This document shows, piece after piece, positions 11,876-37,548 of a DNA stretch of 64,000 nucleotides. Positions within the stretch are counted from its first letter, which is position 1. Each line of letters starts with the position of its first letter. Location: the sequence record PP418985.1; one strand, written 5' to 3'. The notes under the pieces are model-generated. The model saw nothing but the letters and a program-made list of their open reading frames with translations. It did not search any database and was not told the origin of the DNA. Made by a program: the position numbers and the translations under genes. The stretch is from Escherichia phage UPWr_E1.

Positions 11876-14419
11876 ATGTCTAACAAAATCAATGTATTAC
11901 ATCAAACAGAAGGTCCGGTTTATGGTTCCGTTGGTCGTCCACTTCTGTTAAAGATTGTTGTCAGTACAGCAGATTTTAAAGATTTTATAGCAGAATGGAA
12001 GCTGAACGGTGTAAATGTGCCAGCAGAACAAATTTCCGACGCGGATCAGTCTCTGTATATTGAGGAAATGCGAGAAAATCAATTTGGTACATATACATGT
12101 CACATTAAACTGAAAGACGAACCACAGGTCGGTGTAGATATTAAGCCTATTCTTGTACAGCGTAGATTTTTTATTGCACCGCAAGATCAGTCTCCGACGT
12201 ATATTAAAAAACGAATCGGCGAAGAATTAACCCTATTCGCAACACCAGCAATTGAACTAGGTCAACACCCAGAGTTTCAATGGTATCGAAATCATATTCC
12301 GGTAGAACCAGAAAAAATCGAGGACAACCGAACCGTTCATATTGCCCGTGTTGGTCTTATTGATTTTGGCAATTATACGTGTCGTGTTACTGTCCGTGGT
12401 GAACCAGCATCACAATATTGGATTAATCCAATTATTGTAGAAAAGAATGATACCCCTCCTGTAGTGCATCTTAGCGAAGAATATCCTAGCTCTATTACAG
12501 TAGCAGAGGATTCAGCGGTACATCTCAATGTACTTGTTACATCAGATGATAAAGTATCGCCTATTGAGTATACGTGGATTCATAACGGTAGGATTGTTAT
12601 CGAAGAAAACGGAAACTCTTTGGCAATTCCGCATATTCGAAAAGATCAGGAAGGTATCTGGCGTCTTGAGGTAAAACAAGGTGACACTACGGTGTATTCT
12701 AAAGATTGTCATATTGAGGTTGATAGTCAACCATTCTTTAGGATCACACGTCAACCGCAAACTCTTAACGTGTCTGGCGGTGCTTTGGGTTTATTCAGCG
12801 TTGATTATAGAACAAACTATTCACCTGTAAAGATCCAGTGGTATCGTAAAAAGAATACAGAACAGGAGTTTACACCAATTGTAGGTGAGACTAATAAAGA
12901 TCTTCATATTACACCAGCTACTACTGAATTAAACCGAGCACGCTACAAAGCTCGTATCACGTATGGCACAGACCAATACAGAGATTCAGAAGAAGCTGAA
13001 TTGCTAGTAGGTGAAGCATTAACTATTAGAATCACCAAACAACCACAAGCTCTACAAAACGTCCGAGTTTCTTCCTCACAGACGATCACTTGTGAAGCTG
13101 AAACAAACTATGAACATTATCGCTTAGATTATCAGTGGTATAAAGATAACGAATTAATGCCAGGCAAAACATCTAATGTATTGCACTTCTCATCAATCAA
13201 AAAGACAGATGAGGGGCAATATAAGTGTATTGCATCAATGGGTATTTCTGGTCATCGAATTACCGCAGAATCATCACCAGCACAGGTGACAGTAGACAAT
13301 TCAAAGGCATCACTGACTATCACTAAACAGCCAACTGGTGCAACAATTCGCACTGGTGGGTCGTGGTCTATTTCGGTCGAAGCAACATCAAACGATGCAC
13401 TACCGATTCGCTATCGCTGGTTTAAAGACGGCGAAGATCTATTCCCACAAGGCGTTGAACAAAAAAACGTTTACGGTGAAGACCATGCTCAACCTGATTC
13501 GACTGGTGTATATACTTGTCGCGTTTCGGTTGGTTTTGGTGATCACCGAGCGTCTCAAATGTCACATCCAGCAAGGGTGCTAATTAGCGATAATGTGGAA
13601 ATTGTGCCGAATGACTTACAGGTCACCGCACATCCTCATGATAATGACGTTAAGTATAATCAGCGTGTTATCTTAACAGCAAGATCTCAAAATAGCATCG
13701 GGTTAAAACCACATATTCAATGGAAAAAGGATGGTGTTGCTATTCCGGGTGCAAATTCAGAGACTTTAGTCATTGAGCACGCGAAACCATTGGATGCAGG
13801 GGTTTACACCGCAGATATTACCGCAGCAGAAAAAACGGTAACAACCAATCCGGCTACAGTTACTGTAGCAGAGCACAGCAATATTAATATCTTAAAACAT
13901 CCAGTGGATGTGGTTGCAAAAGAAGGACAAACCACCGACATTGTATTGGAAGCTCATGCGGAACATTCTGACGGTGAAACCGAAGTTAGTTATCAGTGGC
14001 ATAAAATTAAAGATGGCGTAGACACTGAAATAAGAGATGCAACAAATAAAACTTTAGTTATCCCTCATGCACAGATCAGCAAGCAAGCTCATCAAGCGAC
14101 CTATTACGCCGAGATAAAAGAAGAGAATGGACACGTTAAACATAGCGAAAAAGTTCGAGTGGTGTTTACTACCGCGAAATTAAAACGCTATGTTCACCCG
14201 ATCCCGTGGCGACGTACATCCTTCCAGTATCAAGGCTATTGGGTTATGGATGAGATTGATCGCTGTAATCGTGAAGGGCTTAACTGGCTTGAGGACTTTA
14301 CGCACACCAAATATCCAGAAGAGATCGAAACTATTGCTGCATCATTGCATCATTATTCAAATACTCATGTATTAGAATCTCGTAATGGTTATCTGGTTGA
14401 TGGTACTCAACTATTTTAA
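11876..14419 (+). CDS. hoc: Hoc-like outer capsid protein with expanded Ig-like array (847 aa)
   Basis: C-terminal YVHPIPWRRTSF...WVMDEI...ESRNGY matches the T4 Hoc capsid-binding domain (YVHPLPHR...GWWVMDEI...ESRNGY); upstream repeated Ig-like modules of about 90-100 aa with YTC-x-V motifs. Confidence 0.85.
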   Translation: MSNKINVLHQTEGPVYGSVGRPLLLKIVVSTADFKDFIAEWKLNGVNVPAEQISDADQSLYIEEMRENQFGTYTCHIKLKDEPQVGVDIKPILVQRRFFIAPQDQSPTYIKKRIGEELTLFATPAIELGQHPEFQWYRNHIPVEPEKIEDNRTVHIARVGLIDFGNYTCRVTVRGEPASQYWINPIIVEKNDTPPVVHLSEEYPSSITVAEDSAVHLNVLVTSDDKVSPIEYTWIHNGRIVIEENGNSLAIPHIRKDQEGIWRLEVKQGDTTVYSKDCHIEVDSQPFFRITRQPQTLNVSGGALGLFSVDYRTNYSPVKIQWYRKKNTEQEFTPIVGETNKDLHITPATTELNRARYKARITYGTDQYRDSEEAELLVGEALTIRITKQPQALQNVRVSSSQTITCEAETNYEHYRLDYQWYKDNELMPGKTSNVLHFSSIKKTDEGQYKCIASMGISGHRITAESSPAQVTVDNSKASLTITKQPTGATIRTGGSWSISVEATSNDALPIRYRWFKDGEDLFPQGVEQKNVYGEDHAQPDSTGVYTCRVSVGFGDHRASQMSHPARVLISDNVEIVPNDLQVTAHPHDNDVKYNQRVILTARSQNSIGLKPHIQWKKDGVAIPGANSETLVIEHAKPLDAGVYTADITAAEKTVTTNPATVTVAEHSNINILKHPVDVVAKEGQTTDIVLEAHAEHSDGETEVSYQWHKIKDGVDTEIRDATNKTLVIPHAQISKQAHQATYYAEIKEENGHVKHSEKVRVVFTTAKLKRYVHPIPWRRTSFQYQGYWVMDEIDRCNREGLNWLEDFTHTKYPEEIETIAASLHHYSNTHVLESRNGYLVDGTQLF

Positions 14420-14463
14420 TATTATTGGTCGCCCTTCGGGGCGACCTTAACGGAGTTATTTTT

Positions 14464-15696
14464 ATGGCATTTACAGTAGCACTAAAATCAAATAAAAAAT
14501 GTTTCCTTGCTGGCGATACATTTAAATTAACGGCTACATTAGCTGGGGTGGAAGATGGTCCGGTCCCATCAAATGTTACCTATGCATGGACTAAAAATGA
14601 TCAGCCAATTGAAAATGAATCAAATGTATTAACGGTCTCTAACGCAACAGCCGAGAGCGCCGGAAAATATAAAGTATCCGTTACTGACACAGACACACAA
14701 GAAGTGGTAGAATCTGCGGTTGTGTCAATGGCAGAAGCAGAATTAGTAGTTAAAATTAATCATCCATCTAGCTACGTCGCATTCGATGAGGCGGTAGAAT
14801 TAACAACTACGGTTTCATATTCAACCGGATTTGCACCGTCTAGCAATTACCAGTTGCATTATAAATGGGAACAAGATCAAACAAATTTAAACCATAGCGA
14901 AAGCACATTATCGATCAGCAACTTCGTCGATGACAACAATGGCGTTTATAAGGTTACTGTATGGGGCGAGTCAGAAACATCAGCGGACAGCGCCAGTGTT
15001 AAACTTGCAGCAATCTCTATATCTGTAGTTGAAGATGTACCACTGGCAAAAACCGTCGCAATGGGTAAACCGATCACACTACCTTATCGCACGATGGGTG
15101 TTTCTATCGGTGACACGTCAGGTCTTCCGGCATTATCAACTAAACAGTCATGGTATTTGCAGCGAGAAGGACAACCGCGCCCGACACTGATCGGGAGTGA
15201 GGTTGGGGAGGCATTGGAAGGGTTTTCTATCATGCCTAACGGCTATTTGCACAAAGAAGCTGCAACAATGGACGACACCGCTAACTTTTGGTGTATCGTA
15301 GAGTTGCTTCAAGAAATTGACGGGCAGCCAGTACCAATCGAAGAAAAAGGTAGCTCTCATTGCGCACTGGAAGTTGTAGAATCACTTCATAAGATGTTCC
15401 GGTATGTGCACCCGATCCCGTGGCGCAAAACTTCGTTTATCTATATTGGATGGTGGGTATTCGACGAGATCGTTAAATTCAATGAGGCAGGGTTAGAATG
15501 GAGAAACCGTGAAGTTTACGAGGATAGCAAATATGCAAGCGACATCGAGACGATCGCGGCAGCGGAAGAAAAATATAGTGATTGCACTTGCATGGAATCT
15601 CGCAATGGTTTCATGTATCAGTCCAAAGAGTTCCATAAACTGGACCGAGAGACATTAGAGCGTGTCCTGCGCATTCGTGAAACGCCTCCTGCTTAA
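14464..15696 (+). CDS. Second Hoc-like paralog (about 410 aa)
   Basis: C-terminus FRYVHPIPWRKTSF...GWWVFDEI...ESRNGF is homologous to the Hoc capsid-binding domain; Ig-like N-terminal modules. ATG 14464 preferred because the track start at 14425 lies inside a hairpin. Confidence 0.8.
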   Translation: MAFTVALKSNKKCFLAGDTFKLTATLAGVEDGPVPSNVTYAWTKNDQPIENESNVLTVSNATAESAGKYKVSVTDTDTQEVVESAVVSMAEAELVVKINHPSSYVAFDEAVELTTTVSYSTGFAPSSNYQLHYKWEQDQTNLNHSESTLSISNFVDDNNGVYKVTVWGESETSADSASVKLAAISISVVEDVPLAKTVAMGKPITLPYRTMGVSIGDTSGLPALSTKQSWYLQREGQPRPTLIGSEVGEALEGFSIMPNGYLHKEAATMDDTANFWCIVELLQEIDGQPVPIEEKGSSHCALEVVESLHKMFRYVHPIPWRKTSFIYIGWWVFDEIVKFNEAGLEWRNREVYEDSKYASDIETIAAAEEKYSDCTCMESRNGFMYQSKEFHKLDRETLERVLRIRETPPA

Positions 15697-17156: not shown

Positions 17157-17265
17157 ATTACTAGAAGTGTTTTATTGCTCGCTGTGCTCGCTTCCGCTAC
17201 GCGGATACTTGTATTTGTTATTAACTTGTAGTATGATATTGCTTTCTATGGAGGAAAATATTATG

Positions 17266-17850
17266 TTTGACCAGTTACAAGATCTATTTGGAGTAAAACC
17301 ACTTCGTAGATGTGCTTTAATCGGCTCTAGAAAAGCGCCTAGCGACATTTTGATAATGGCTAGTACCATTGGGAGGGTATTGTCAGAAAATCGCGTTGTA
17401 GCGCATTCTGGAGGGGCTTACGGTATGGACAATGCTTTCATGAAGTATTACGATCCAGATTATAGAAAAATTTTCATTCCAAATTGGAAGTTTTATGACC
17501 ACAAGCATAACGGTCATGATGTGATTGCATGGCAAACCTTAGAACAAAAGAATCTGGCGATGGATGAATTAGAACACGTTTATGATAATCCTCGTTCTAT
17601 ACCGTTATACATGCAAAATTTATTTTCTAGAAATGTTGCTCAAGTCTTAGGTGAGACACTTGATGATCCTGTAGATTGTGTGTTATTCTGGGCGAAAGAA
17701 GTTAATGGAATCGTTTCGGGAGGAACTCGAATTGCTGTTTATGTTGCCCGTAGACATGGGATACCATGTTTTAACTTATATCATCAAGAAAATAGATCCG
17801 CCGTCGAAAAAATCTTGGGCGGATCTGATTTGTCTTGGTTAGATATTTAG
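17266..17850 (+). CDS. DprA/SLOG-like Rossmann-fold protein (about 195 aa)
   Basis: ATG at 17266 with GGAGG Shine-Dalgarno (the track's longer ORF from 17134 runs through the repeat). Motifs IGSRKAP and HSGGAYGMD resemble the DprA/Smf and LOG-like Rossmann core; assignment is by motif only. Confidence 0.4.
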   Translation, partial: FDQLQDLFGVKPLRRCALIGSRKAPSDILIMASTIGRVLSENRVVAHSGGAYGMDNAFMKYYDPDYRKIFIPNWKFYDHKHNGHDVIAWQTLEQKNLAMDELEHVYDNPRSIPLYMQNLFSRNVAQVLGETLDDPVDCVLFWAKEVNGIVSGGTRIAVYVARRHGIPCFNLYHQENRSAVEKILGGSDLSWLDI

Positions 17851-19092
17851 TTAAGCGTTGTCAATCTCAAGTGGTGGCAGTTCGATTCCTAAAATGTAGG
17901 ACATTTCAGAGCGTCCAGCCATTTTACCCCAATCGTCACCCTTGATGATCTGGTGTTCTTCCTGATCAACTTTTGATGTATATGGGTTGACAGAGAGTGA
18001 ATAACGATTCATAATAGCTACATGATGCTGGAAGCTATTAGGATCAATTACGCTCTTATACGCGCCAGCGCCATCGGCTTCTGTGTATGGGGAGTAGAAC
18101 AGCGAACCTACGCTCTCCATATCACCGATCATGTGCTTACAGCCAACTAGCATATAATCGAACGGCGTTACCGTGTCTGCGTACACTTCCAGACCGCAAC
18201 GTAGACGTCCTTCGCTTAGAGCGTTGTCGGTTTCTTCCATCCATCCGGTAGACTGCAACAGACCAACTACGCGAGAAGATGCTAAAACGTATGTGCCAGC
18301 AAAGGAGGAAGTACGCAACATTTGATTGCTCATTTCGCAAGCATAGCGGTAAAGTTCACGAGCTTGTTTTGGTGCATCCTGAACGCCAACGAGAGAAAGT
18401 ACACCATCAGTGGTGATTCCTTTAATTTTATAGCGAGTTGATACAGTGATCAACTTCTGCATAATATCTTTGTTGATCTCTTCGGAAGCGACAGTAGCCA
18501 GAAGGTCGATCACAGAATTTTCAGAATTGATTTGGCTTGCCTCAAGATCCTGCATTAATTCAGTGGTGAACGAGGTTTTCAGTTTACGAGAACCTACATT
18601 AACTTGCCACTTGTCAAACTGCATAGAGGTAGACGCAATTTCGGTGTTTTTATCTTCAAAGTATTCTACCGATGCACAATCGCTATAGAAACGAATTTTG
18701 TTTGTCATTACGCCTTTAAAGATCGCAGCTTCTGGAGTTGCGGAATCTTCGCTAACTCGACCAGCAACAACAGCTTGATAAACTACGTCGCCAGATTTAA
18801 ACAGATCACCGATCTTGTATTCTTTTTCCTGTGAAAATTCTTCGATCTCTGTACGATCACCAGCCGCGCCACCGTAGGTTGCAGCAGTTCGGAAAGTCAT
18901 CTGACCATCACGATTAAGATAACGTAGGCCGTACAATGCAGATACTGGTTGATCCGTTGGCTGGATTGCTACCAGATCAGAGAAAATCAGGTTGTTTACC
19001 GCGCGAGTTAATGATAATAGTTGCGGTCGCGCTGTCTGGTTAGCTACTGAGGAAGTAGATTCCCGCAACAGTTCAGTAAAAATATGAGTCAT
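17851..19092 (-). CDS. 24: Capsid vertex protein gp24
   Basis: Matches remembered T4 gp24 N-terminus (ELLRESTxx..RP.L..LTRA...LI.SD.VA.Q.T.QPV.A.YG..YLN); about 413 aa from ATG 19092 (T4 gp24 427 aa); late promoter upstream. Confidence 0.85.
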   Translation of the reverse strand: MTHIFTELLRESTSSVANQTARPQLLSLTRAVNNLIFSDLVAIQPTDQPVSALYGLRYLNRDGQMTFRTAATYGGAAGDRTEIEEFSQEKEYKIGDLFKSGDVVYQAVVAGRVSEDSATPEAAIFKGVMTNKIRFYSDCASVEYFEDKNTEIASTSMQFDKWQVNVGSRKLKTSFTTELMQDLEASQINSENSVIDLLATVASEEINKDIMQKLITVSTRYKIKGITTDGVLSLVGVQDAPKQARELYRYACEMSNQMLRTSSFAGTYVLASSRVVGLLQSTGWMEETDNALSEGRLRCGLEVYADTVTPFDYMLVGCKHMIGDMESVGSLFYSPYTEADGAGAYKSVIDPNSFQHHVAIMNRYSLSVNPYTSKVDQEEHQIIKGDDWGKMAGRSEMSYILGIELPPLEIDNA

Positions 19093-19129: not shown

Positions 19130-19137
19130 TATTTATA
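19130..19137 (-). promoter_or_regulatory. T4-type late promoter (TATAAATA) for gene 24
   Basis: tatttata on plus strand, 38 nt upstream of the gene 24 ATG. Confidence 0.55.
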
Positions 19138-19145
19138 CAAAAAGA

Positions 19146-19169
19146 AAAGGGAATCCCGAAGGATTCCCA
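19146..19169 (-). terminator. Rho-independent terminator ending the inserted cassette
   Basis: Minus-strand gggaatcc-ttcg-ggattccc hairpin followed by a U-run. Confidence 0.6.
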
Positions 19170-19176
19170 AATAAAA

Positions 19177-19329
19177 TTACTTCTTCCTAGAAACATTATC
19201 AACGCTACGGTTAACTTTGTTTACAAGATTAATTGCATGATCAGAACGAATAATTGCATAAGCTAATGCTAACATCAATTCGTCGTATTCCTTACGAGTC
19301 ATAACATAGCTGTTTTCTTTCTTACTCAT
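19177..19329 (-). CDS. Small protein (50 aa), last gene of the 23/24 insert
   Basis: ATG preceded by GGAGG; MSKKENSYVMTRKEYDELMLALAYAIIRSDHAINLVNKVNRSVDNVSRKK; under 60 aa so absent from the ORF track. Confidence 0.5.
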   Translation of the reverse strand: MSKKENSYVMTRKEYDELMLALAYAIIRSDHAINLVNKVNRSVDNVSRKK

Positions 19330-19339
19330 GCATTCCTCC

Positions 19340-20272
19340 TTATGGAGAATTTGGGGTTAATTCAGGGAACAGCGTGCCAAAACCAAAATTACCGCTAGCG
19401 TCACGCTGGAATGTCATAACAAGGTCGACATAAACCGGATCTGTAAATCTATCAAATCTATCCGACCCAATATCAACCATGAACGCTAATTTAATCTCAT
19501 TAGAATTTGAGATCGCAGCGTCAGCACATGCACCAAAAATTACCTGAGTATCTTTTGCCGTATATGCATTGACCTGTATGTTGGTTGGTTTCATTACATC
19601 GTTAGACAAACCAGATAGTTCTACTCGTCCATTAAATGACGCCAGACTTTGACCACCGCCTAGATAATGAATATGACCACCTTGTGAAGATTGTGTCCAG
19701 TCCATTAGCATAACCTTAAATCTAGCCTCAAAACGCCCTTCCACGTAATATCGACCAGTTTCAAAGTTTTGTCTAATTGGTGTCCATGTGATGTGTGGTT
19801 TTCCGCTTACAGGATCGACAAGAGTCACACCTACGGCTGGCTTAATACTGACACTATCAAATGAACGTGATAGCCAATTCCATGTTTGATTGTCTAGGTT
19901 TGGCAATTGTGGAATATTCAATCCATCTAATCGGCTGTGTGCTCGTGCTGCTTCCGATTCTGCGGTAGTCGCTTTAGTCAGTGCATCAGTTGCTTTGCTC
20001 ATGGATTGCCCTGCCGTTCGATCGGCAACATCAGCAGTTGATTTTGCAATCTCTGCCGTTCGATGTGCTGAACTTGCTGTTTCTGTTATTACGTCATCGC
20101 ACGCAATAACAAAATCAATTACAGGATCGATCAATTGAGTGTTGATTGAGTTGGAAATTCGTTCAACATCACTTTCCATTAGAGCATTAGATTCATTTCC
20201 TGTGAAATGAGTAATTTCACCTTGAACAAAATCATTTTGCAACTTGCTGATCTTTGCTTTAATATCGGTCAT
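19340..20272 (-). CDS. Hypothetical late protein (310 aa), putative fibre-associated
   Basis: Ala/Thr/Ser-rich helical N-terminal half (KATDALTKATTAESEAARAHSRL), beta-rich C-terminal half; inside the late-promoter-driven cassette between 23 and 24. Confidence 0.6.
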   Translation of the reverse strand: MTDIKAKISKLQNDFVQGEITHFTGNESNALMESDVERISNSINTQLIDPVIDFVIACDDVITETASSAHRTAEIAKSTADVADRTAGQSMSKATDALTKATTAESEAARAHSRLDGLNIPQLPNLDNQTWNWLSRSFDSVSIKPAVGVTLVDPVSGKPHITWTPIRQNFETGRYYVEGRFEARFKVMLMDWTQSSQGGHIHYLGGGQSLASFNGRVELSGLSNDVMKPTNIQVNAYTAKDTQVIFGACADAAISNSNEIKLAFMVDIGSDRFDRFTDPVYVDLVMTFQRDASGNFGFGTLFPELTPNSP

Positions 20273-20287
20273 GAATCACCCCGCTAA

Positions 20288-22006
20288 TTATTGTGCTTGC
20301 TCTGGAAGTGCTTGTATATTTTCTATAGTAGCACCCCATTTAACGGCATTTAAACGAGCTTTGTGCATATCGTCTTCTCCGACTATTGCCGCAAAACCCT
20401 TTTTAGCGTGGAAATTCGCCCATGTGTTATATGCTAGTGCACCTACGCGTTTTGCTGTGTCGTGTTCAACTTCATCAACCATCAGCATTGTGCGGAAAGG
20501 TGCAAATGCTACATCTGGGTTATCGTCTTGTGTCCATGAACCACCATTAAACGACACCTGCCACCTGAACATCTCACCAGACGGAATTTGATTAATTCTC
20601 AACTTTAGAGATCTTGTTTTCTGGTTTTTCTGAGTTACGTCTAGTGGAACCTGATATCTAGCCGCTTGTCGTTCTCTACCATCATTCATCCTATGCCATG
20701 CGGTAACAACAAGCATAACCGGAATTGTGTTTGATGTTTTAATAAAACTAACATCAACTAAAAGTTCCATATCATAGCTACCAGATTTAGGCGCAACCCA
20801 CCAATGGTCGGCATCAGCTTGTCGATCTGGCTCTTTAATCTGTGGTGTGCATCCATAGTTATCATGAATGACATACTTCCACGGAATGTAAAAAGCACCA
20901 CCGCCAGTTCCTGGATTTGTAACTTCGAGTAGATTTTGTGCAGTGGTAAACACGCTTGACACGCGAGGGAAAGCATAAATGGTAGCACCACCAGTGTGAT
21001 CGCTGATCTGTAACCATTCGGTCCATCGATCAGTTCTCTTTGTATAGGAACGGTGATACATTACGCCATCAATGCTTGTTGCGATCTGCAATACATGATC
21101 TTTACATGCATGAACATCTACAGAACCATGTGTTTGTGTTCCATTTGGACGGTTTGCCGACCCCTCAAAGTAACAGAAACGGCCTTGTTTAGTCAAGGTG
21201 TTTAGGTCTAGCGTTTCTGGCGAAATTTCCGGTAGACGTTTACCCAGACTGGTTAACATCGCCTCCTGATCACCATTTAAACCACCGCCACCACTTCCTT
21301 CCCCGCTTTGAGAGTTCCACTCACGCCATGCACCATTGTGTCGGATGCGAGAGTAAACACCACCATCAATAGAACGGACCACTTGAAGAATGCTACCATC
21401 GACGACATATACATCTGCGGACCCCTTATTCGCCATCATTGGAGGTTTGCCATAGGTTGCATCACCTACCGGATAGCGTCCGGGTGATGTGGTTACATCC
21501 AGATTGTTAATTGGATTCGTCGTAGTCCATTTTACCTCAATTGCAGATAGACGCTGCGCAACGTTCGCTAATACTTCTGGTACTGGAAATACAAGAGATT
21601 CCTGTGTTCCGTCTGAGTACGTGACTTCTAGAGTCCAGTTGCGATCGTCCTCGGACAAATTCGCTTCGATTCTAGCAATGCCACGACCATTTTCGCCCTT
21701 CTCACCAGGAATACCCTGTTCACCCTGAATAACCCAGGTCATATCGACCCATTTTGATTTATCGTAGGGAGATTGTGCTGTTTTACCAGTCCATAATTGG
21801 AGTTTTTCGCCACAAACAATAATTGTTTTTAGTCTTTCCAATTCTGGAAAATGTTCGGTAAAATATTCATCCCTAGCTTCTTCATTTTCGAAACGGTGAG
21901 TATTTTTAATTCCGCTAGGTACGTTAGTTCCGATCTGAATACCACCACCAGAACAACCACCACTCACGGAACCAGCATTAATGATAGCTTGTGGATTTAG
22001 CTTCAT
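20288..22006 (-). CDS. Fibre-like late protein (about 572 aa) with Gly-rich and knob-like repeat modules
   Basis: ATG 22006 with GGGGG Shine-Dalgarno right after the upstream stop. Features: GSVSGGCSGGG, collagen-like GIPGEKGENG, GEGSGGGG linker, two repeated modules (VDGSILQVVRSIDGGVYSRIRHNGAWREW and KDHVLQIATSIDGVMYHRSYTKRTDRWTEW). Confidence 0.6.
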   Translation of the reverse strand: MKLNPQAIINAGSVSGGCSGGGIQIGTNVPSGIKNTHRFENEEARDEYFTEHFPELERLKTIIVCGEKLQLWTGKTAQSPYDKSKWVDMTWVIQGEQGIPGEKGENGRGIARIEANLSEDDRNWTLEVTYSDGTQESLVFPVPEVLANVAQRLSAIEVKWTTTNPINNLDVTTSPGRYPVGDATYGKPPMMANKGSADVYVVDGSILQVVRSIDGGVYSRIRHNGAWREWNSQSGEGSGGGGLNGDQEAMLTSLGKRLPEISPETLDLNTLTKQGRFCYFEGSANRPNGTQTHGSVDVHACKDHVLQIATSIDGVMYHRSYTKRTDRWTEWLQISDHTGGATIYAFPRVSSVFTTAQNLLEVTNPGTGGGAFYIPWKYVIHDNYGCTPQIKEPDRQADADHWWVAPKSGSYDMELLVDVSFIKTSNTIPVMLVVTAWHRMNDGRERQAARYQVPLDVTQKNQKTRSLKLRINQIPSGEMFRWQVSFNGGSWTQDDNPDVAFAPFRTMLMVDEVEHDTAKRVGALAYNTWANFHAKKGFAAIVGEDDMHKARLNAVKWGATIENIQALPEQAQ

Positions 22007-22013
22007 ATAATAA

Positions 22014-22322
22014 TTACCCCCGTTTAGCAAGATACACGGTTACAGTAGAATCATTGGAAACAGATTTTACTTTTGCCCTAATAAATGACCATAATGTTTC
22101 AAACGCTCCACCATCAGTTGCATATTCATTACCATCAGCTTTCAATTCTGAAATAGTGAACCAACCTTTGCCATCTAAGGAACCTTCTAACGAGGCTTCC
22201 GCAATGACTTTTTGCCCTTCCCGTGCACCCTCTACGGTCATCTGTACTGTCATGTGCGTACTATGAACGCAGTTTACCGACGCGGAAACGGCTGGAGTTT
22301 TGGTCTTTATAAGTGTGTGCAT
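22014..22322 (-). CDS. Hypothetical small late protein (102 aa)
   Basis: First gene of the insert; GGGGAG Shine-Dalgarno; late promoter 39 nt upstream. Confidence 0.55.
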   Translation of the reverse strand: MHTLIKTKTPAVSASVNCVHSTHMTVQMTVEGAREGQKVIAEASLEGSLDGKGWFTISELKADGNEYATDGGAFETLWSFIRAKVKSVSNDSTVTVYLAKRG

Positions 22323-22360
22323 CTAATTTTCGCTCCCCTTAGAATATAGGCTTGCAACCT

Positions 22361-22368
22361 TATTTATA
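22361..22368 (-). promoter_or_regulatory. T4-type late promoter (TATAAATA) driving the insert between 23 and 24
   Basis: tatttata on plus strand, 39 nt upstream of the 102-aa ORF ATG. Confidence 0.55.
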
Positions 22369-22385
22369 ACGGGATATAATACGCA

Positions 22386-22416
22386 AAAAGGGAAGACCCT
22401 TTCGAGTCTTCCCTTT
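22386..22416 (-). terminator. Rho-independent terminator downstream of gene 23
   Basis: Minus-strand gggaagac-tcgaaagg-gtcttccc hairpin followed by uuuuu. Confidence 0.65.
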
Positions 22417-22483
22417 GGAATTAACACTTTACACTGTCATAAGGTTTATGATAAGTCGGGCATTGCACCCGACCGGAGTTTAA

Positions 22484-24082
22484 TTAGCAACCTTTAACCC
22501 ATACACGGCGGAAGTATGCGTTTTTACCTACGCTGTCTTTGCTCAACATACCGGAGGTGATGCGAGCGGACGGTGCCTGGGTTTTGCTGTCTGCAAACGG
22601 GTTAATACCGATGCCGTAGCGAGTCTTGAAGCCCAGAACCGGGTGGAAAGACTGCGGATCGGTTGCACGCAGCGGAGTCAGAGCAACATACGGCGCATAG
22701 TAGATACCAGCATCCATTTCGTTGTCGCCTTTGTAGCCTACGGTGAAGTAGTCCTGACGAGCATACTGGTCGATGAATACTTTGTACTTACCAGCCAGAA
22801 CACCAGCGAAAACAGCTTTAGTGGTGTCGGTATTCAGACCTTTTGCAGCACCCTGCATAGCAACACTGATACCCTGATCAGCAGAAGCCAGAATGTTTAC
22901 AACGTTACGGGAAGCGATAACAAAGTTACCAGCACCGCGACCAGTCTGACGAGCGATTTCAGCAGCTTCTTTGTCGATCTGGTAGATCAGAGATTTGAAG
23001 GATTCACCAGCCCAACGAGCACCGCGAGTATCGATCGGGTCTTGCAGGTCAAATACACCAGCTTTAGAACCAACGGTCTGAGTCATACCAGTCTTACCAA
23101 CCTGTGCGGTAAAGTTGATAACGTCAACGATTTCACGGTTGATTTCCAGCAGAACTTCGTTAGCCAGGATAGCATTCAGTTCAGCGTCAGCATCCATACC
23201 GTGTACAGCACGCAGATCCTGCGCAACTTCGATAGAATAACGAGCTTTCAGTTGGCGAGATTTCGCTTCAACAACCTGTTTGTCAATACGCATCGACATT
23301 TCAGCCCACGGGTTATTGCTGGAACCGTTAAAGCCTTCCTGAATTTCGGCAATGGAAGTAGCCATACCGAAAGCGATTTCAGCCAGTTTACCTTCTTCCA
23401 TCAGCTTCATGACCACTTCATCTTCGGATTCATCACCTGATTTCTGCGGAGTTACTGCGCTAGAAGTTACGTTTTGCAGATATGCAATACCAGTGTCTGC
23501 AAACGTGTGATGTACAATGTCTCCCGGTTGGATCTGGGTAGATAATGCCAGTTTAGCGAATGCAGTACCAGTAGGAGAACCAGTCGTTGCATTTTTTGCT
23601 GCCAGAGAGCTATGGAACACATCTGGCGCATACATCGGGTGGAATGCTTCACGAACATTTTTAGGATTACCACCAGCCAGCGGGTCTGGACCGTATACAG
23701 AACGGATTGCAAAGATCTGGCTAGTCGGGGTGCTCATAGGCTGAACGCCACAAATATCAAATGCAATCAGGTTAGGAATAGCACGGCGAACCATACCGAT
23801 AACAGCCGGACCTACGTTAGTGATTGCACCGCTAGTCTGACCTGCCGCAATCTGGGATGCGTCGTAACCGTGGTCGCCAGCAACTTCGGCTTCGGCGATA
23901 AAACCACCGAATGCTTCAACAACTTTTTCATCCTTATAGATCGGATCTACAGCAAAATCCGCTTCCTGAGATTCCAGAATTTTAGCAACCAGTTTCTGCT
24001 TAGACGCAGTTGCGATTTCCGGCAGTTTTTCGTTCTCCAGCAGCGGGGACCATTTTTCCATCAGTTCTTTGGTAGTTTTCAT
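22484..24082 (-). CDS. 23: Major capsid protein gp23
   Basis: 532 aa; extensive identity to remembered T4 gp23 (LPEIA, GQTSGA, GPAV-GMVRRAIPNLIAFDICGVQPM, KSRQLKA-YSIE-AQDLRAVHGMDADAEL, YIDQYA-QDYFTVGYKG-NEMDAGIYYAPYVALTPLR). Confidence 0.97.
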   Translation of the reverse strand: MKTTKELMEKWSPLLENEKLPEIATASKQKLVAKILESQEADFAVDPIYKDEKVVEAFGGFIAEAEVAGDHGYDASQIAAGQTSGAITNVGPAVIGMVRRAIPNLIAFDICGVQPMSTPTSQIFAIRSVYGPDPLAGGNPKNVREAFHPMYAPDVFHSSLAAKNATTGSPTGTAFAKLALSTQIQPGDIVHHTFADTGIAYLQNVTSSAVTPQKSGDESEDEVVMKLMEEGKLAEIAFGMATSIAEIQEGFNGSSNNPWAEMSMRIDKQVVEAKSRQLKARYSIEVAQDLRAVHGMDADAELNAILANEVLLEINREIVDVINFTAQVGKTGMTQTVGSKAGVFDLQDPIDTRGARWAGESFKSLIYQIDKEAAEIARQTGRGAGNFVIASRNVVNILASADQGISVAMQGAAKGLNTDTTKAVFAGVLAGKYKVFIDQYARQDYFTVGYKGDNEMDAGIYYAPYVALTPLRATDPQSFHPVLGFKTRYGIGINPFADSKTQAPSARITSGMLSKDSVGKNAYFRRVWVKGC

Positions 24083-24141: not shown

Positions 24142-24936
24142 TTAGATGAAATTCAGGTAGCGGGATACGCCGGAATCTACAGTTGCCTTTTTCTCTGATT
24201 CTTCGACAGCTTCTGCAATAACATTCAGCTTGTCGGCATCAGTATTTAGTGATTCTTCAATCTTCGCTGGTTTGTCTTCTTTCTTAGCAACCATTTCGAC
24301 AATTGCAGTTAATTTCTTATCGAAAGTTTCGCTATATTCCAGACCTTCAATCAGCGCGGTTACTTTTTCTTTCTGAGTATCGGAAAGATCACGAGTGCTT
24401 TCATTGATCGCTTGTTCGCGCTTCATACCACGAATTTCGCTTTCAAGTTGCAGTTTGGCATCAAAGAGTTCAGAGGTTTTTTCTTTTTCTTCTTTGAGTG
24501 CTTCGTCAAGTTCAGCAACAACGTCTACAGATTCTTCCGGTACTACAACATTGTGAGTAACGAAAACATCTTTCAGAGAACCAATCAGGGATTCGCACAG
24601 ATCCGCTTTAATATTACGGGTAACGGCTTCTTTATTTTCTGCCAGCCATTTAGCGCCTAAGTGATTCAGGAATTTATCCGCATCTTCGTACAGTTTGGTT
24701 TCAATCTCGGTGCGTGCTTCTTCGACCTTTGATTCTACCAGTTCATCGGCTTTAGCGGCGATTTTTTCAATGTGGCTTTCTGCCAGAGCAACAGCATTAG
24801 CTTTCACCGCTTGAGCGTAGATAGTACCAAAATTTTCTTTTACTTCCGGCGACAGTTCGACGGATTCAAACAGGTCATCGAGAGCAACGTCTACGGTGAT
24901 CTGTTTTGCTTCTTCGAGCAGCATTTCTTTAAGCAT
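24142..24936 (-). CDS. 22: Prohead core scaffold protein gp22
   Basis: 264 aa acidic helical protein (T4 gp22 269 aa) directly upstream of gene 23. Confidence 0.8.
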   Translation of the reverse strand: MLKEMLLEEAKQITVDVALDDLFESVELSPEVKENFGTIYAQAVKANAVALAESHIEKIAAKADELVESKVEEARTEIETKLYEDADKFLNHLGAKWLAENKEAVTRNIKADLCESLIGSLKDVFVTHNVVVPEESVDVVAELDEALKEEKEKTSELFDAKLQLESEIRGMKREQAINESTRDLSDTQKEKVTALIEGLEYSETFDKKLTAIVEMVAKKEDKPAKIEESLNTDADKLNVIAEAVEESEKKATVDSGVSRYLNFI

Positions 24937-24967: not shown

Positions 24968-25663
24968 TTATTTATAGCGTTTAGATAACGCTTCTGCGAG
25001 CGCCATAAACGCGCTATTATTCGATTCTACGATGTTTTGTTGTGAGGCTGTAGGGTTAGTCACTTTTTCGGTTTTATCGCTTTCTGGTGCGTCTGACGCG
25101 CTAGAATCGCTATCCGTTGACTCAACCACCGGAGTTACCCACGCATCTGGTGCGCTCGGACCCCATACAACATCAACACCAACCGTCAACACAAAACCTT
25201 CCTGTACAATATTGTATCCGCGACCTGAGTCTTTTAAACGACCCAACCCACGGGATGAAACGCCAGGAATCCAGCCAGCGCGAATCAGTGCAGCAAGTTT
25301 ATCACCTGCGCCTTTATCCCCTTCAATAACACGGGCTTTACCCATCACGTTATTACCTTCCCACCACAATTTTTCAATTATGATGCAAGCGTTAGATGGA
25401 TCTGGCATTGCTCTTGCTGGGTGATTAAGTTCGCCTAGAGCTTGATGTGTCTCAACTTGTTCATGTATGTATTTAGTAACCGCATTTTCTAGAACGCTGC
25501 GAGGATACCAGCGTTTATTACGGTTTACTGTTTCGGCTTGCAGGAAAATCCCTTGAATATAGAGATTTCCTGTAGCCTTATCATCAAATGATTCAAGCAA
25601 TGACGAACTACCGCGAGCACAAGGAACGCCCCATTGTTCGATCAGTAATTCGTTCTTTTCCAT
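24968..25663 (-). CDS. 21: Prohead core protease gp21
   Basis: 231 aa (T4 gp21 212 aa); synteny 68-21-22. Confidence 0.8.
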   Translation of the reverse strand: MEKNELLIEQWGVPCARGSSSLLESFDDKATGNLYIQGIFLQAETVNRNKRWYPRSVLENAVTKYIHEQVETHQALGELNHPARAMPDPSNACIIIEKLWWEGNNVMGKARVIEGDKGAGDKLAALIRAGWIPGVSSRGLGRLKDSGRGYNIVQEGFVLTVGVDVVWGPSAPDAWVTPVVESTDSDSSASDAPESDKTEKVTNPTASQQNIVESNNSAFMALAEALSKRYK

Positions 25664-35778: not shown

Positions 35779-37548
35779 TTATACCGGAGAAATTCCAAAG
35801 AGGAACTCTTTAATTTGTAGCGGTTGCGCTAATGCTTCTACAGATACACCCTTAATACGAATATCGATCCGGTCGCCCTTTTCAATATTTAGGAAAGCAC
35901 TGGTAGAATAACTGATTAATTCATCAGTTCCATAATGACCATTTCGTACCTCATGTACAATCTGACCATTTTTAGCAATACCAACTACTAAAGTAGCGTT
36001 ATGTGCCGCATGTACCGAACAACGGAAAACACAACGGAATAAGCCTTTGTCGTTAACCGTGACAAGAGATTCGCTCTTAACCATTCCACGCACAGGAACT
36101 TCTGCGGTCATATCGTTTAACGGGATTCCTTTGTATTGATCTTGCCCGTCGAGAGTAACATCAATCTGAGCGGTGTTTTTAAATGCACCAGCCGCCCATG
36201 CGACCTGAACCCATTCCCCGTGCTTACGTAGATAATGGAAACCATCATCAGGAACGTCTGTTACCTTGCTTGCATTTGATGTGCTCAATGCCTTAACAGT
36301 TTTCACGATCCCATCTTGTTCAAGCTGCGTGCTTCCTTCTGGATTGCCGTACATGTCGCTTGACAGCTTAATAACCCCAGCGGTTAGACCGGAATCGCGA
36401 TCGCCGATCATTTGCTCGATATCCTGCACGCTTGCTTCTAAACGCCCCTGCGTGTTTTCTACGATTTTCAGGCGACCAGCGATTGTGTGACGCTCGCTAT
36501 CCGTACCCACTGTATTTGTTATACGTGCAACTTCACCGCGTAGGCCATCTGCGCCGCTAACACCGACAATAGATTTGAGGTCCACAAATTCCCGTTCTTG
36601 ATTAGTCAATCGATAATCAATACTTCCAGCGGCTTGAGGATTGCCAATCTTATTTTCCAAAAGAGTTAACCGAGGACGAATACCAGCATCAACTCCATTG
36701 ACTTCATCATTAAGCTGAGTATAATCAGACTGCAATTTAGTTACTTTAGTACCGATATCAGGAATTGATTCAAACAGAATTGCTTTCTTTACTTCCTGAA
36801 CTTCGTTTGATATACTAGCAATATTTCGAGTGTTTGTGCGAAGACGAAGATAAACATTGTCTTGTGTTGCTAGTGATGTGTCGCCTAGCTCACTGCGCAT
36901 TTTGTTAACTTGTTTTGTTAGCTCTCCAACGTCAGAATCTTGCCAGTCGTTTTCCAATTGGCGGATTCTCTGACCGTGGTTGCTTAATGCTTCCGTATTC
37001 TGAATTACTCGATATTTGATCCCTGAACCGGAACTACCCGGTTCAGGAGAACCGTTGATATTGAAGTTAGGGAAAGCGCCTAATTCTTGTTTGATGAAAG
37101 AAATATCATCATAGATTGTTCGTGTGCTCGGATCTGCTGCCGGACGAACACCAATTTTCTTTCCGGTTTCTGCCAGTTCATCTACTGTGGTTTGTAATGT
37201 CCTTGAAGTTTCTCCTAAATTTTCTTCTACAGACTCAACCTTTGCAATAGTCTGATTGACAATATCAATAATACTACCATCAGCAACCGCGCCTAAAGTA
37301 GTTTTAATATCATTAACTGCTGTAACAACTTCGTTAACTTTTGTTACCGTTGTCTTAGAATTTTCATCCAGACGAACAATATTTTCTTGAATAGCATGAG
37401 GGGCGCGGTTAAGCGTCCCCTCATGTCCGGTTTCTGTAGTTGCTGCGCTTAGACATTCACCATTTTTAATCCAGCTAATAGAATGTTGTCCCTCTCCAGG
37501 GACACCATCGACGTTAGGGATCTTTCGAATGTTTAATTGTTCGATCAT
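35779..37548 (-). CDS. wac: Fibritin (whisker) with foldon plus an extra C-terminal domain of about 140 aa
   Basis: Coiled-coil body; foldon-like DDGFHYLRKHGEWVQV (T4: DGQAYVRKDGEWVLL); 589 aa versus 487 in T4. Confidence 0.8.
   Translation of the reverse strand: MIEQLNIRKIPNVDGVPGEGQHSISWIKNGECLSAATTETGHEGTLNRAPHAIQENIVRLDENSKTTVTKVNEVVTAVNDIKTTLGAVADGSIIDIVNQTIAKVESVEENLGETSRTLQTTVDELAETGKKIGVRPAADPSTRTIYDDISFIKQELGAFPNFNINGSPEPGSSGSGIKYRVIQNTEALSNHGQRIRQLENDWQDSDVGELTKQVNKMRSELGDTSLATQDNVYLRLRTNTRNIASISNEVQEVKKAILFESIPDIGTKVTKLQSDYTQLNDEVNGVDAGIRPRLTLLENKIGNPQAAGSIDYRLTNQEREFVDLKSIVGVSGADGLRGEVARITNTVGTDSERHTIAGRLKIVENTQGRLEASVQDIEQMIGDRDSGLTAGVIKLSSDMYGNPEGSTQLEQDGIVKTVKALSTSNASKVTDVPDDGFHYLRKHGEWVQVAWAAGAFKNTAQIDVTLDGQDQYKGIPLNDMTAEVPVRGMVKSESLVTVNDKGLFRCVFRCSVHAAHNATLVVGIAKNGQIVHEVRNGHYGTDELISYSTSAFLNIEKGDRIDIRIKGVSVEALAQPLQIKEFLFGISPV

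What the first reader, a model, noticed from the sequence alone, without database searches (positions are those of the whole stretch)
19146..22416. Late-promoter-driven four-gene cassette inserted between major capsid gene 23 and vertex gene 24
In T4 genes 23 and 24 are adjacent. Here about 3.1 kb sits between them, bounded by a terminator after gene 23 (22386..22416), its own TATAAATA late promoter (22361..22368), and a terminator plus a fresh late promoter before gene 24 (19146..19169, 19130..19137). It encodes a 102-aa protein, a 572-aa protein, a 310-aa protein with a helical Ala/Thr-rich N-terminus, and a 50-aa protein. The 572-aa protein has Gly-rich tracts (GSVSGGCSGGG, GEGSGGGG), a short collagen-like GIPGEKGENG, and two repeated modules resembling tail-fibre knob domains. 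Late expression implies virion or assembly proteins, so this may be an accessory capsid or neck fibre/adhesin module.
Basis: partly seen in the sequence, partly recalled or inferred. Interest (0 to 1): 0.85.

Follow-up and report, generated by a model that had tools for sequence, protein, structure and literature searches.

The report
Accessory fibre operon between capsid genes
Between the two capsid genes of this RB49-like (T4-type) coliphage sits a late-expressed operon for two fibre-shaped, receptor-binding-like proteins plus two small proteins; classic lab relatives such as RB49 keep only its decayed remnants, so some of these phages probably carry an extra, unstudied set of adhesive fibres.

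Summary
On the minus strand, gp23 is followed by a strong terminator, a TATAAATA late promoter, four tightly packed ORFs (102, 572, 310 and 50 aa), a second terminator and a new late promoter for gp24.

The phage is a Krischvirus (RB49-like). The full cassette occurs in only 5 of about 57 sequenced Krischvirus genomes. All the others share the same deletion breakpoints and keep frameshifted remnants, so the cassette is ancestral, not inserted.

All four ORFs are under purifying selection (dN/dS about 0.1).

ORF572 is fibre-like. It has a widespread N-terminal module, five conserved Gly-X-Y triplets, two pyocin-type knob domains and a TNF/C1q-like jelly-roll head.

ORF310 has a conserved N-terminal anchor, an Lpp-like alanine-zipper coiled coil and a head resembling phage receptor-binding proteins. 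Paralogues in relatives share the anchor but differ in shaft and head.

The pair "ORF102 homologue plus N-module fibre" recurs between gp23 and gp24 in at least four other T4-like lineages. The N-module fibre also sits in the head/neck gene blocks of unrelated Vibrio phages.

Best reading: accessory virion fibres acting as adhesins, probably attached to head or neck. The attachment site and the ligand are inferred, not shown. No publication describing it was found.

The parts
22484..24082 (-). gp23 major capsid protein (upstream flank)
   Evidence: Pfam Gp23 E 1e-117, phrog_138
22448..22474 (-). hairpin directly after the gp23 stop codon, without a U-tract
   Evidence: -12.9 kcal/mol, z -2.8
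22386..22416 (-). intrinsic terminator closing the gp23 transcript
   Evidence: 13-bp stem, -20.9 kcal/mol, z -4.65, followed by UUUUU; conserved in Phi1 and, in analogous form, in L016
22361..22368 (-). T4-type late promoter TATAAATA for the cassette
   Evidence: 39 nt upstream of the ORF102 ATG; same spacing class as the copies before gp22, gp23 and gp24; also present before the ORF102 homologues in L014 and L016
22014..22322 (-). ORF102: small beta-rich protein, the conserved partner of the fibre gene
   Evidence: phrog_16217 E 2e-21. Homologues sit directly after gp23 in Aeromonas phage 44RR2.8t, L004, L014 and L016. It occurs as the N-terminal domain of a GDSL-esterase protein in Pseudomonas phage Orisa03. 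dN/dS 0.08-0.11
20288..22006 (-). ORF572: multi-domain fibre protein
21725..21934 (-). ORF572 N-module (aa about 25-94), a widespread N-terminal module of phage fibres that precedes collagen-like repeats
   Evidence: profile search of 1.84 billion proteins; phmmer E 1e-9 to 1e-18 to fibres in T4-like, crAss-like and Vibrio phages
21680..21724 (-). short collagen-like stretch (aa 95-109, Gly at every third position)
   Evidence: G95, G98, G101 and G107 invariant, G104 at least 90% conserved in 19 sequences; relatives carry long Pfam Collagen repeats at the same place
21308..21523 (-). knob domain 1 (aa 162-233)
21002..21223 (-). knob domain 2 (aa 262-335)
   Evidence: as for knob 1
20312..20974 (-). 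C-terminal TNF/C1q-like jelly-roll head (aa about 345-565)
19340..20272 (-). ORF310: coiled-coil fibre protein
   Evidence: 17 homologues; AF2 pLDDT 76; dN/dS about 0.10
20087..20245 (-). ORF310 N-terminal anchor motif (aa about 10-62)
   Evidence: shared with JK32 614-aa, L004 454-aa and 982-aa, and L007 94-aa proteins, E 1e-17 to 1e-20
19925..20089 (-). alanine-zipper coiled coil (aa 62-116, inside the modelled helix 33-117)
   Evidence: Pfam Alanine_zipper E 9e-5; Lpp-56 (1jcc) E 0.0046; AF2 helix
19373..19870 (-). ORF310 C-terminal beta-sandwich head (aa about 135-300)
19177..19329 (-). ORF50: small helical protein, last gene of the operon
   Evidence: phrog_16600 E 8e-38; retained in all Krischvirus including the deletion alleles
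19149..19168 (-). intrinsic terminator closing the cassette
   Evidence: 8-bp stem with UUCG loop, -14.2 kcal/mol, U-run
19130..19137 (-). late promoter TATAAATA for gp24
   Evidence: 38 nt upstream of the gp24 ATG
17851..19092 (-). gp24 vertex protein (downstream flank)
   Evidence: Pfam Gp23 family E 2e-87; annotated capsid vertex protein in Brandy
19501..22314 (.). segment missing from RB49/Phi1/JSE-type genomes (shared deletion breakpoints); 20682-20823 survives in some of them as a roughly 74%-identical frameshifted remnant
   Evidence: blastn against Phi1, JSE, RB49, kaaroe and phiS; Phi1 sequence read directly; 52 of 57 records hold only the last 48 aa or so of ORF310

Best explanation
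This is a late-transcribed operon that equips the virion with an accessory set of fibres.

ORF572 is most likely a trimer. From N to C it has an N-terminal module, a short collagen-like triple helix, a small beta domain, two pyocin-type knob domains and a distal TNF/C1q-like head.

ORF310 is most likely a trimeric alanine-zipper coiled-coil stalk. It carries a conserved N-terminal anchor and a distal lectin-like head of the kind found on phage receptor-binding proteins.

ORF102 is the conserved small partner of the ORF572-type fibre. I read it as an adaptor or docking subunit.

ORF50 is co-transcribed but independent of the fibres.

I think the fibres are most likely mounted on the head or neck rather than the baseplate. 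There they would act as auxiliary adhesins, binding reversibly to surface glycans or proteins before the long tail fibres engage. Like Hoc, they would be dispensable in the laboratory. This fits the natural presence/absence polymorphism: the cassette is ancestral in Krischvirus, and the RB49/Phi1/JSE allele is a deletion derivative.

Shown: the operon anatomy, purifying selection, fibre-like folds, modular paralogy, ancestral status and recurrence of the locus.

Inferred: trimer state, virion incorporation, attachment site and ligand.

Rough sub-confidences: virion fibre or adhesin proteins 0.8; head or neck rather than tail attachment 0.55; auxiliary adhesion as the function 0.5.
For: Anatomy: terminator, late promoter, four packed ORFs, terminator, new promoter.

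Functional genes: dN/dS 0.08-0.12 for all four ORFs, comparable to gp23 and gp24.

ORF572 folds:
- The best-ranked named BFVD matches are tail-fibre-type proteins.
- Gly-X-Y triplets are conserved.

ORF310: Lpp-like alanine zipper, an 85-residue modelled helix, and a head resembling the pyocin fibre foot and RBP heads.

Modularity typical of interchangeable fibres: the same roughly 60-aa anchor precedes shafts of 80 to about 700 aa with different heads, in JK32 (614 aa), L004 (454 and 982 aa) and L007.

Ancestral status: all deletion alleles share the breakpoints 22314 and 19501. They keep a frameshifted ORF572 fragment and the last 48 aa or so of ORF310.

Synteny pointing to head or neck:
- ORF102 homologue plus N-module fibre lies between gp23 and gp24 in L004, L014, L016 and Aeromonas phage 44RR2.8t. 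In 44RR2.8t the fibre carries Phage_fiber_rpt and an Sf6-type knob, E 4e-27.
- An N-module fibre lies next to hoc and inh in L017.
- An N-module fibre lies between the major capsid gene and the head-completion adaptor in Vibrio phage 2.095.A, and between the head-tail adaptor and tail completion in 489E54-1.

No paralogue exists elsewhere in the five carrier genomes or in the window.

Circumstantial phenotype: cassette-bearing Brandy49 has the broadest host range and an unexplained way past O antigen (PMC9569957). Cassette-bearing JK32 depends on wzzB (O-chain length) and Tsx, whereas RB49 uses OmpA (bioRxiv 10.64898/2026.07.23.740414).
Against: - No proteomic, microscopic or genetic evidence shows that any of the four proteins is in the virion.
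- The ORF572 model is only moderate (mean pLDDT 60.8). Its N-terminal 106 residues, the putative attachment part, are not modelled.
- The fold resemblances are to tail fibres, so a baseplate or tail location is not excluded.
- In a crAss-like contig the N-module fibre lies among tail-side genes. In L021 and Orisa03, related modules lie beside tailspike-like genes.
- The small ORFs that precede N-module fibres outside T4-like phages are not detectably homologous to ORF102.
- In Brandy, ORF572 is split by a 1-nt deletion, so Brandy49's host range cannot be credited to ORF572.
- The host-range papers attribute the phenotypes to gp38.
Confidence: 0.55

Rival explanations
1. The proteins are extra tail or baseplate fibres (side fibres) that happen to be encoded in the head-gene cluster. 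They would extend or alter receptor recognition directly at the baseplate, as in phages with several receptor-binding proteins.
For: All named fold matches are tail-fibre or receptor-binding proteins: pyocin fibre, AP22 gp53, lactococcal and Listeria RBPs, phi812 RBP. N-module fibres sit in tail-side regions in a crAss-like contig and next to tailspike-like genes in L021. The ORF102-like domain is fused to an esterase beside a tailspike gene in Orisa03.
Against: There is no sequence similarity to any baseplate, short-fibre, long-fibre or wac protein of the same phage. The locus is fixed between gp23 and gp24 in five T4-like lineages, whereas T4-type baseplate accessories cluster with genes 9-12. 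In Vibrio phages the module lies in head/neck gene blocks, upstream of tail completion.
Confidence: 0.22
2. The proteins are neck or collar fibres of the fibritin type. Their main role would be to sense the environment or to help long-tail-fibre assembly and retraction, rather than to bind the host.
For: ORF310-type proteins have the fibritin plan of N-terminal anchor, segmented coiled coil and C-terminal domain, and their shaft length varies freely. In Vibrio phage 489E54-1 the module follows the head-tail adaptor genes.
Against: The phage already has a wac gene with a Fibritin_C domain (35779-37548). ORF310 has no Fibritin_C domain and no similarity to the wac N-terminus. The distal domains look like receptor-binding heads.
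Confidence: 0.13
3. The proteins are late but non-virion. Examples would be released decoys or adhesins, cell-surface modifiers, or anti-defence factors that merely share beta-sandwich and coiled-coil folds.
For: No direct evidence of virion incorporation. All four proteins are annotated as hypothetical. ORF50 persists without the fibres.
Against: The combination of collagen-like triplets, knob domains, a TNF-like head and a conserved anchor with swappable shafts and heads is the hallmark of structural fibres. There are no enzyme, toxin or defence-related matches in Pfam, NCBIfam or PADLOC. Expression comes from a late promoter inside the head-gene cluster.
Confidence: 0.07
4. The cassette is a mobile element or homing-endonuclease insertion, like segD at the T4 23/24 junction.
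For: It occupies the same junction as T4 segD (PMC2988022) and shows a presence/absence polymorphism.
Against: There are no GIY-YIG, HNH or transposase matches. The polymorphism is explained by deletions with remnants. The genes are co-oriented with their neighbours, driven by a late promoter and under purifying selection.
Confidence: 0.01

Closest known systems
PRD1 vertex spike protein P5
   Different: ORF572 has two pyocin-type knob domains inserted in the shaft. There is no sequence homology. Attachment to the gp24 pentamer is untested. PRD1 is a membrane-containing tectivirus.
R-type pyocin / myophage tail fibre PA0620 (knob 1, knob 2, foot)
   Different: The sequence match is not significant (E 0.37). 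The distal domain of ORF572 is TNF-like rather than a pyocin foot. The genes lie in the head-gene cluster, and no baseplate-binding N-terminus is recognisable.
phi29 head fibre gp8.5 and other head fibres or decoration proteins (T4 Hoc, SPP1 gp12)
   Same: The gene lies next to the major capsid gene. Expression is late. The function is dispensable, given the natural deletion alleles. The shape is an elongated trimeric or coiled-coil fibre. Hoc-like auxiliary adhesion is the proposed role.
   Different: There is no sequence or fold match to gp8.5, Hoc or gp12. Capsid binding has not been shown. This phage already encodes two Hoc-like Ig proteins.
T4 fibritin (wac)
   Same: ORF310-type proteins share the layout of N-terminal anchor, trimeric coiled-coil shaft of evolvable length and C-terminal domain.
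   Different: There is no Fibritin_C/foldon domain and no similarity to the wac N-terminus. The C-terminus is a 170-aa beta-sandwich head. wac is present separately in the window.
Aeromonas phage 44RR2.8t ORF162w/ORF163w (uncharacterised)
   Same: This is a true positional and partly sequence homologue. gp23 is followed by an ORF102 homologue (35% identity, E 8e-11), then a fibre that starts MILNPKAVLNN (compare MKLNPQAIINA) and ends in a trimeric jelly-roll knob (Pfam Phage_tail_NK), then gp24.
   Different: The fibre is shorter (288 aa). It has no knob repeats, no ORF310-type gene and no ORF50. Its function is equally unknown.
C1q/TNF superfamily, Bacillus BclA
   Different: Only five Gly-X-Y triplets are present. 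The resemblance is at fold level only, with 5-15% identity.

Membership tests
T4-type late transcription unit | TATAAATA -10 element a short distance upstream of the first gene, on the coding strand | tested here: met
   22361-22368, 39 nt before the ORF102 ATG. The same spacing class (33-39 nt) is seen before gp22, gp23 and gp24.
T4-type late transcription unit | Transcript start and gp55/gp33 dependence shown experimentally | not testable with these tools
   Needs late-infection RNA-seq or primer extension.
Collagen-stalk / TNF-C1q-head trimeric proteins (C1q, BclA, PRD1 P5) | Gly-X-Y repeats | tested here: met
   Gly at positions 95, 98, 101, 104 and 107, invariant or at least 90% conserved in 19 homologues. 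The run is short, five triplets.
Collagen-stalk / TNF-C1q-head trimeric proteins (C1q, BclA, PRD1 P5) | TNF-like jelly-roll C-terminal domain | tested here: met
Collagen-stalk / TNF-C1q-head trimeric proteins (C1q, BclA, PRD1 P5) | Homotrimeric assembly | not testable with these tools
   Only monomer prediction was available.
Pyocin/phage tail-fibre knob domain | Knob fold and sequence signature | tested here: inconclusive
Pyocin/phage tail-fibre knob domain | Attachment to a contractile-tail baseplate | not tested
   No recognisable baseplate-binding N-terminus. Localisation is unknown.
Head fibre / capsid decoration protein | Physical binding to the capsid lattice | not testable with these tools
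   Needs cryo-EM, virion mass spectrometry or co-folding with gp23 and gp24.
Head fibre / capsid decoration protein | Encoded in the head-morphogenesis gene block and non-essential | tested here: met
   The cassette lies between gp23 and gp24 in five T4-like lineages. The N-module fibre lies beside hoc and inh, and beside the capsid and adaptor genes of Vibrio phages. Viable natural deletion alleles exist.
Fibritin (wac) | Fibritin_C / foldon and wac N-terminal domain | tested here: not met
   ORF310 has no Fibritin_C domain. It has no similarity to the window's wac, which does carry Fibritin_C.
Homing endonuclease insertion (segD-like) | GIY-YIG or HNH nuclease domain | tested here: not met
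   No such match in Pfam, PHROGs or NCBIfam for any of the four ORFs.
Anti-phage defence or counter-defence gene | Match to known defence-system models | tested here: not met
   PADLOC gives only coiled-coil noise: JetC E 5e-4 over the alanine zipper, Cas6 E 0.009.

The most novel reading that the evidence does not exclude
The cassette builds capsid-mounted fibres on a T4-type head. An ORF102 adaptor would dock trimeric ORF572 and ORF310 fibres at or near the gp24 pentameric vertices, a trimer-on-pentamer mismatch like that of PRD1 P5 or the adenovirus fibre. T4-like phages would then have a head-first, two-stage adsorption mode. This could account for the unexplained O-antigen-independent breadth of Brandy49-type phages and the O-chain-length dependence of JK32. 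It would also mean that the reference Krischvirus strains (RB49, Phi1, JSE) are natural 'bald' deletion mutants.
Probability: 0.15. Interest if true: 0.8.

Novelty: new variant of a known kind. Interest (0 to 1): 0.56.

Why it matters
T4-like phages are the best-studied virions. Their known surface appendages are long and short tail fibres, whiskers, Hoc and Soc.

A conserved but variable fibre operon inside the head-gene cluster would add another appendage class to this model group. It is present in several Straboviridae lineages and reduced to pseudogene scraps in the reference strains RB49, Phi1 and JSE.

It also has practical weight. Krischvirus phages are used in therapeutic cocktails. 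The cassette-bearing isolates (Brandy49, SSG23, SFHK24, JK32, G2248) include phages with unusually broad or O-antigen-related host-range behaviour that has so far been attributed to gp38 alone.

The natural presence/absence alleles give a ready-made experiment: near-isogenic phages with and without the fibres.

Tried and rejected
- Sequence family searches on the four ORFs (Pfam, PHROGs, NCBIfam, PADLOC) gave only unknown-function PHROGs, an alanine zipper and coiled-coil noise.
- PF27308, precomputed on three ORF572 homologues, is not in the local Pfam copy and could not be identified.
- PDB sequence searches gave nothing significant for ORF572 (pyocin knob E 0.37) or for the ORF102 family, and Lpp only for ORF310.
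- A search for paralogues of the cassette proteins among the window's own ORFs found none.
- A profile of the ORF310 anchor against the 5.8-billion-protein set returned only one new protein, a split second fibre gene in L007.
- The search for related loci with the ORF102 alignment failed because no stretch was conserved enough.
- I tested whether the small ORFs preceding N-module fibres in crAss-like, Vibrio and other phages are ORF102 homologues. They are not detectably so (E at least 0.05). The 'conserved adaptor' claim is therefore limited to T4-like phages plus the Orisa fusion.
- A weak phmmer hit between a gp24 and an ORF102 homologue (E 7e-5 in a set of about 10 sequences) was dismissed as a chance match on an LDGxGW motif. 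ORF102 does not match the window's gp24.
- The 4-aa insertion in the window's gp23 is not correlated with the cassette.
- Literature searches for a description of this locus (Krischvirus, Brandy/Cognac/Whisky, JK32, G2248, SSG23, 23/24 junction, head fibres) found none.
- The homing-endonuclease and mobile-element reading was rejected (see rivals).
- Attributing Brandy49's host range to ORF572 was rejected because that gene is frameshifted in the Brandy record.

Full report
**1. What is in the sequence**

On the minus strand the order is as follows:
- gp21 (24968-25663)
- gp22 (24142-24936)
- gp23 (22484-24082)
- a 102-aa ORF (22014-22322)
- a 572-aa ORF (20288-22006)
- a 310-aa ORF (19340-20272)
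- a 50-aa ORF (19177-19329)
- gp24 (17851-19092)

gp23 and gp24 are identified by Pfam Gp23 (E 1e-117 and 2e-87) and phrog_138.

The four ORFs are separated by 7, 15 and 10 nt. Each has its own Shine-Dalgarno sequence.

After gp23 there is a hairpin without a U-run. It is followed by a 13-bp-stem terminator at 22416-22386 (-20.9 kcal/mol, z -4.65).

After the 50-aa ORF there is an 8-bp UUCG-loop terminator at 19168-19149 (-14.2 kcal/mol). Both terminators are followed by U-runs.

TATAAATA occurs at 22361-22368 and 19130-19137.

The total count in the window (10, against 5.7 expected) is not significant on its own. However, 9 of the 10 copies lie on the late-gene strand. Four of them sit 33-39 nt before the starts of gp22, gp23, ORF102 and gp24.

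The Gly-rich tracts, the GIPGEKGENG stretch and the two repeated modules (30% identity, E 7e-12) are all present.

**2. Which phage, and how common the cassette is**

Megablast places the window in Krischvirus, the RB49-like Straboviridae.

Of 58 matching phage records, only five cover the cassette:
- SSG23 and SFHK24 (93% identity)
- Brandy (92.7%)
- G2248 (83.6%)
- JK32 (75.6%)

tblastn with ORF572 finds the same five records among 50,697 phage genomes, at one place each.

The remaining records, about 52, match only the flanks.

Direct comparison shows that Phi1, RB49, kaaroe, JSE and phiS all lose homology at window position 22314, eight bases into ORF102. Homology resumes at 19501 (19472 in phiS).

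RB49, Phi1 and kaaroe also keep 100-144 bp that match window 20682-20823 at about 74% identity.

Read in frame, the Phi1 fragment spells FDAGFIKTQQTISPIFVVTAWQRTNE. This corresponds to residues of about 420-450 of the ORF572 family and is broken by stops.

The annotated 45-aa 'ORF161.1' (phrog_20809) is the frameshifted C-terminus of ORF310.

The late promoter, both terminators and the 50-aa gene are retained in these genomes.

The cassette is therefore ancestral in the genus. The RB49-type arrangement is a widespread deletion allele: it is found in isolates from several countries and decades, so it is not a laboratory artefact.

**3. The genes are functional**

Against JK32 and a metagenomic relative (L007), dN/dS is:
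- ORF102: 0.08-0.11
- ORF572: 0.10-0.12
- ORF310: 0.10
- ORF50: 0.12

The values for gp23 are 0.08-0.15 and for gp24 0.06.

**4. What the proteins look like**

*ORF572.*
- The family is narrow: 22 clusters at 38-92% identity, and only four full-length representatives among 1.84 billion proteins.
- The AlphaFold model is moderate overall (mean pLDDT 60.8). It is usable for residues 107-233 and 262-335, and good for 396-527.
- A profile search of PDB sequences picks the pyocin knob first, but not significantly (E 0.37).
- In the Foldseek search of viral models, the best-ranked matches that carry a name are mostly tail-fibre-type or tail proteins.
- Glycines at positions 95, 98, 101, 104 and 107 are conserved in all or nearly all homologues. 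In more distant relatives the same position carries long Pfam Collagen repeats.

*ORF310.*
- The model has mean pLDDT 76. It shows a single helix spanning residues 33-117 and a beta-sandwich spanning 135-300.
- The helix matches the Lpp/OprI alanine zipper, a trimeric coiled coil (Pfam E 9e-5; PDB 1jcc E 0.0046).

*ORF102* is beta-rich with no significant family match. *ORF50* is helical. Both belong only to PHROGs of unknown function.

**5. Modularity**

The first 60 residues or so of ORF310 carry the motif F.QGE...TG....LME.D...IS..IN..LI.PVID.

The same motif recurs at the N-terminus of:
- JK32's extra 614-aa 'tropomyosin-like' protein
- the 454-aa and 982-aa proteins in a distant relative (L004)
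- a split second gene in L007

The phmmer E-values are 1e-17 to 1e-20. In each case the shaft that follows has a very different length and the head is different.

One anchor with interchangeable shafts and heads, present in one to three copies per genome, is the standard design of fibres that share a docking site.

**6. The locus recurs beyond Krischvirus**

ORF102 homologues sit immediately after gp23 in Aeromonas phages of the genus Biquartavirus (44RR2.8t, 31 and others; 35% identity, E 8e-11).

There the next gene (ORF163w, 288 aa) begins MILNPKAVLNN, compared with MKLNPQAIINA in ORF572. It carries Pfam Phage_fiber_rpt and the Sf6-type knob (E 4e-27), and is followed directly by gp24.

Three further T4-like contigs show the same layout of gp23, terminator, TATAAATA, ORF102 homologue, N-module fibre, further large proteins, then gp24:
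- L004
- L014
- L016

In another T4-like contig (L017) an N-module fibre lies next to inh and two Hoc-like genes.

The N-module itself (residues of about 25-108) is widespread at the N-termini of phage fibres.

In 45-kb Vibrio phages it heads a 941-1015-aa protein. That gene lies between the major capsid gene and the head-completion adaptor in phage 2.095.A. In 489E54-1 it lies between the head-tail adaptor and tail completion.

In Pseudomonas phage Orisa03 the ORF102-like domain is fused to the N-terminus of a GDSL-esterase protein. That protein is encoded beside a collagen-like protein and a pectate-lyase-type tailspike. This links the domain to host-surface-directed virion proteins.

Counter-examples exist. 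In a crAss-like contig the module lies among tail-side genes, and in L021 it lies beside tailspike-like genes.

The small ORFs that precede N-module fibres outside T4-like phages are not detectably related to ORF102.

**7. Interpretation**

Shown:
- a late operon
- four genes under purifying selection
- two proteins with fibre and receptor-binding architecture
- anchor-sharing paralogues
- ancestral status, with loss in most sequenced isolates
- a recurrent 23/24-junction fibre locus in Straboviridae

Inferred:
- The proteins are trimeric virion fibres. Collagen triplets, the alanine zipper and the TNF-like head all occur in trimers.
- ORF102 is a docking partner.
- The attachment site is the head or neck, judged from synteny only.
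- The fibres act as auxiliary adhesins. No enzymatic domain was found.

Circumstantial phenotypes fit but do not prove this.
- Brandy49 carries the cassette. It has the broadest host range of four RB49-like phages and passes O antigen by an 'elusive' mechanism (PMC9569957).
- In the Brandy record, however, ORF572 is split by a 1-nt deletion.
- JK32 depends on Tsx and on wzzB, whereas RB49 depends on OmpA (bioRxiv 10.64898/2026.07.23.740414).

Rival readings:
- tail or baseplate side fibres: not excluded
- fibritin-like neck fibres: possible
- non-virion late proteins: unlikely
- a mobile element: rejected

**8. Novelty**

None of the papers on the carrier phages mentions the locus, and all its genes are annotated as hypothetical.

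The kind of thing, accessory phage fibres, is familiar. The particular family, its fixed place in the head-gene cluster of T4-like phages, and the fact that the reference Krischvirus strains are deletion derivatives appear to be undescribed.

I rate it a new variant of a known kind, of moderate to good interest. The attachment site is the key open point.

Noticed in passing
window 11876-14419 (+) and 14425-15696 (+): Two adjacent Hoc-like genes rich in immunoglobulin domains. One is 847 aa (Ig_3 E 2e-43, many Ig repeats) and one is 423 aa. Brandy has the same pair (846 and 408 aa, both annotated hypothetical). A T4-like contig (L017) likewise has two Hoc-like genes flanking inh. A doubled, extra-long Hoc is unusual compared with T4.
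   Followed up: partly
L001 (Brandy, MZ504876.1) locus 3790-5519; corresponds to window about 21279: In the Brandy record the ORF572 homologue is split into 250-aa and 327-aa ORFs. The cause is a 1-nt deletion in TTTAAA just after the Gly-rich linker. It may be a real inactivation or a sequencing error. It matters for any attempt to link Brandy49's host range to this gene.
   Followed up: partly
L009 (Pseudomonas phage Orisa03) 6974-12019: A 594-aa protein has an ORF102-like N-terminal domain fused to a GDSL/SGNH esterase. It is followed by a collagen-repeat protein and a pectate-lyase-type tailspike. This looks like an accessory host-surface-modifying gene cluster placed after the lysis genes.
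   Followed up: partly
L022 6702-12728 and L023 5668-11953 (Vibrio phages 2.095.A and 489E54-1): The same six-gene block sits on different sides of the head-tail adaptor genes in the two related phages. The block is a small ORF, an N-module fibre of 941 or 1015 aa, and four further genes of 96, 182, 398 and 237 aa. It behaves as a movable head/neck module.
   Followed up: partly
window 35779-37548 (-): The wac (fibritin) homologue is 589 aa. Its Fibritin_C match lies at residues 368-450, so about 140 residues extend beyond the usual C-terminal foldon region.
   Followed up: no
window about 23659-23670 (-), gp23 residues about 138-141: The window's gp23 is 532 aa, against 528 aa in Brandy, Phi1, JK32 and L007. 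The difference is a 4-aa insertion (GNPK) in a variable surface stretch. It is not correlated with the presence of the cassette.
   Followed up: yes
window 17263-17850 (+): A 195-aa ORF with a weak DprA-like match (DNA_processg_A, E 8e-5) converges on gp24 and ends exactly where the gp24 stop codon lies. Homologues in relatives are annotated hypothetical.
   Followed up: no
L004 7913-9061: A 382-aa protein lacks the ORF310-type anchor but matches the C-terminal third of the neighbouring 982-aa fibre (E 1e-8 to 1e-10). This suggests a partial duplication or a split fibre gene in that lineage.
   Followed up: no
window 22448-22474 (-): A conserved hairpin without a U-run lies immediately after the gp23 stop codon, upstream of the true terminator. 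It is also present in Phi1. It may be an RNA-stability or processing element for the very abundant gp23 message.
   Followed up: no
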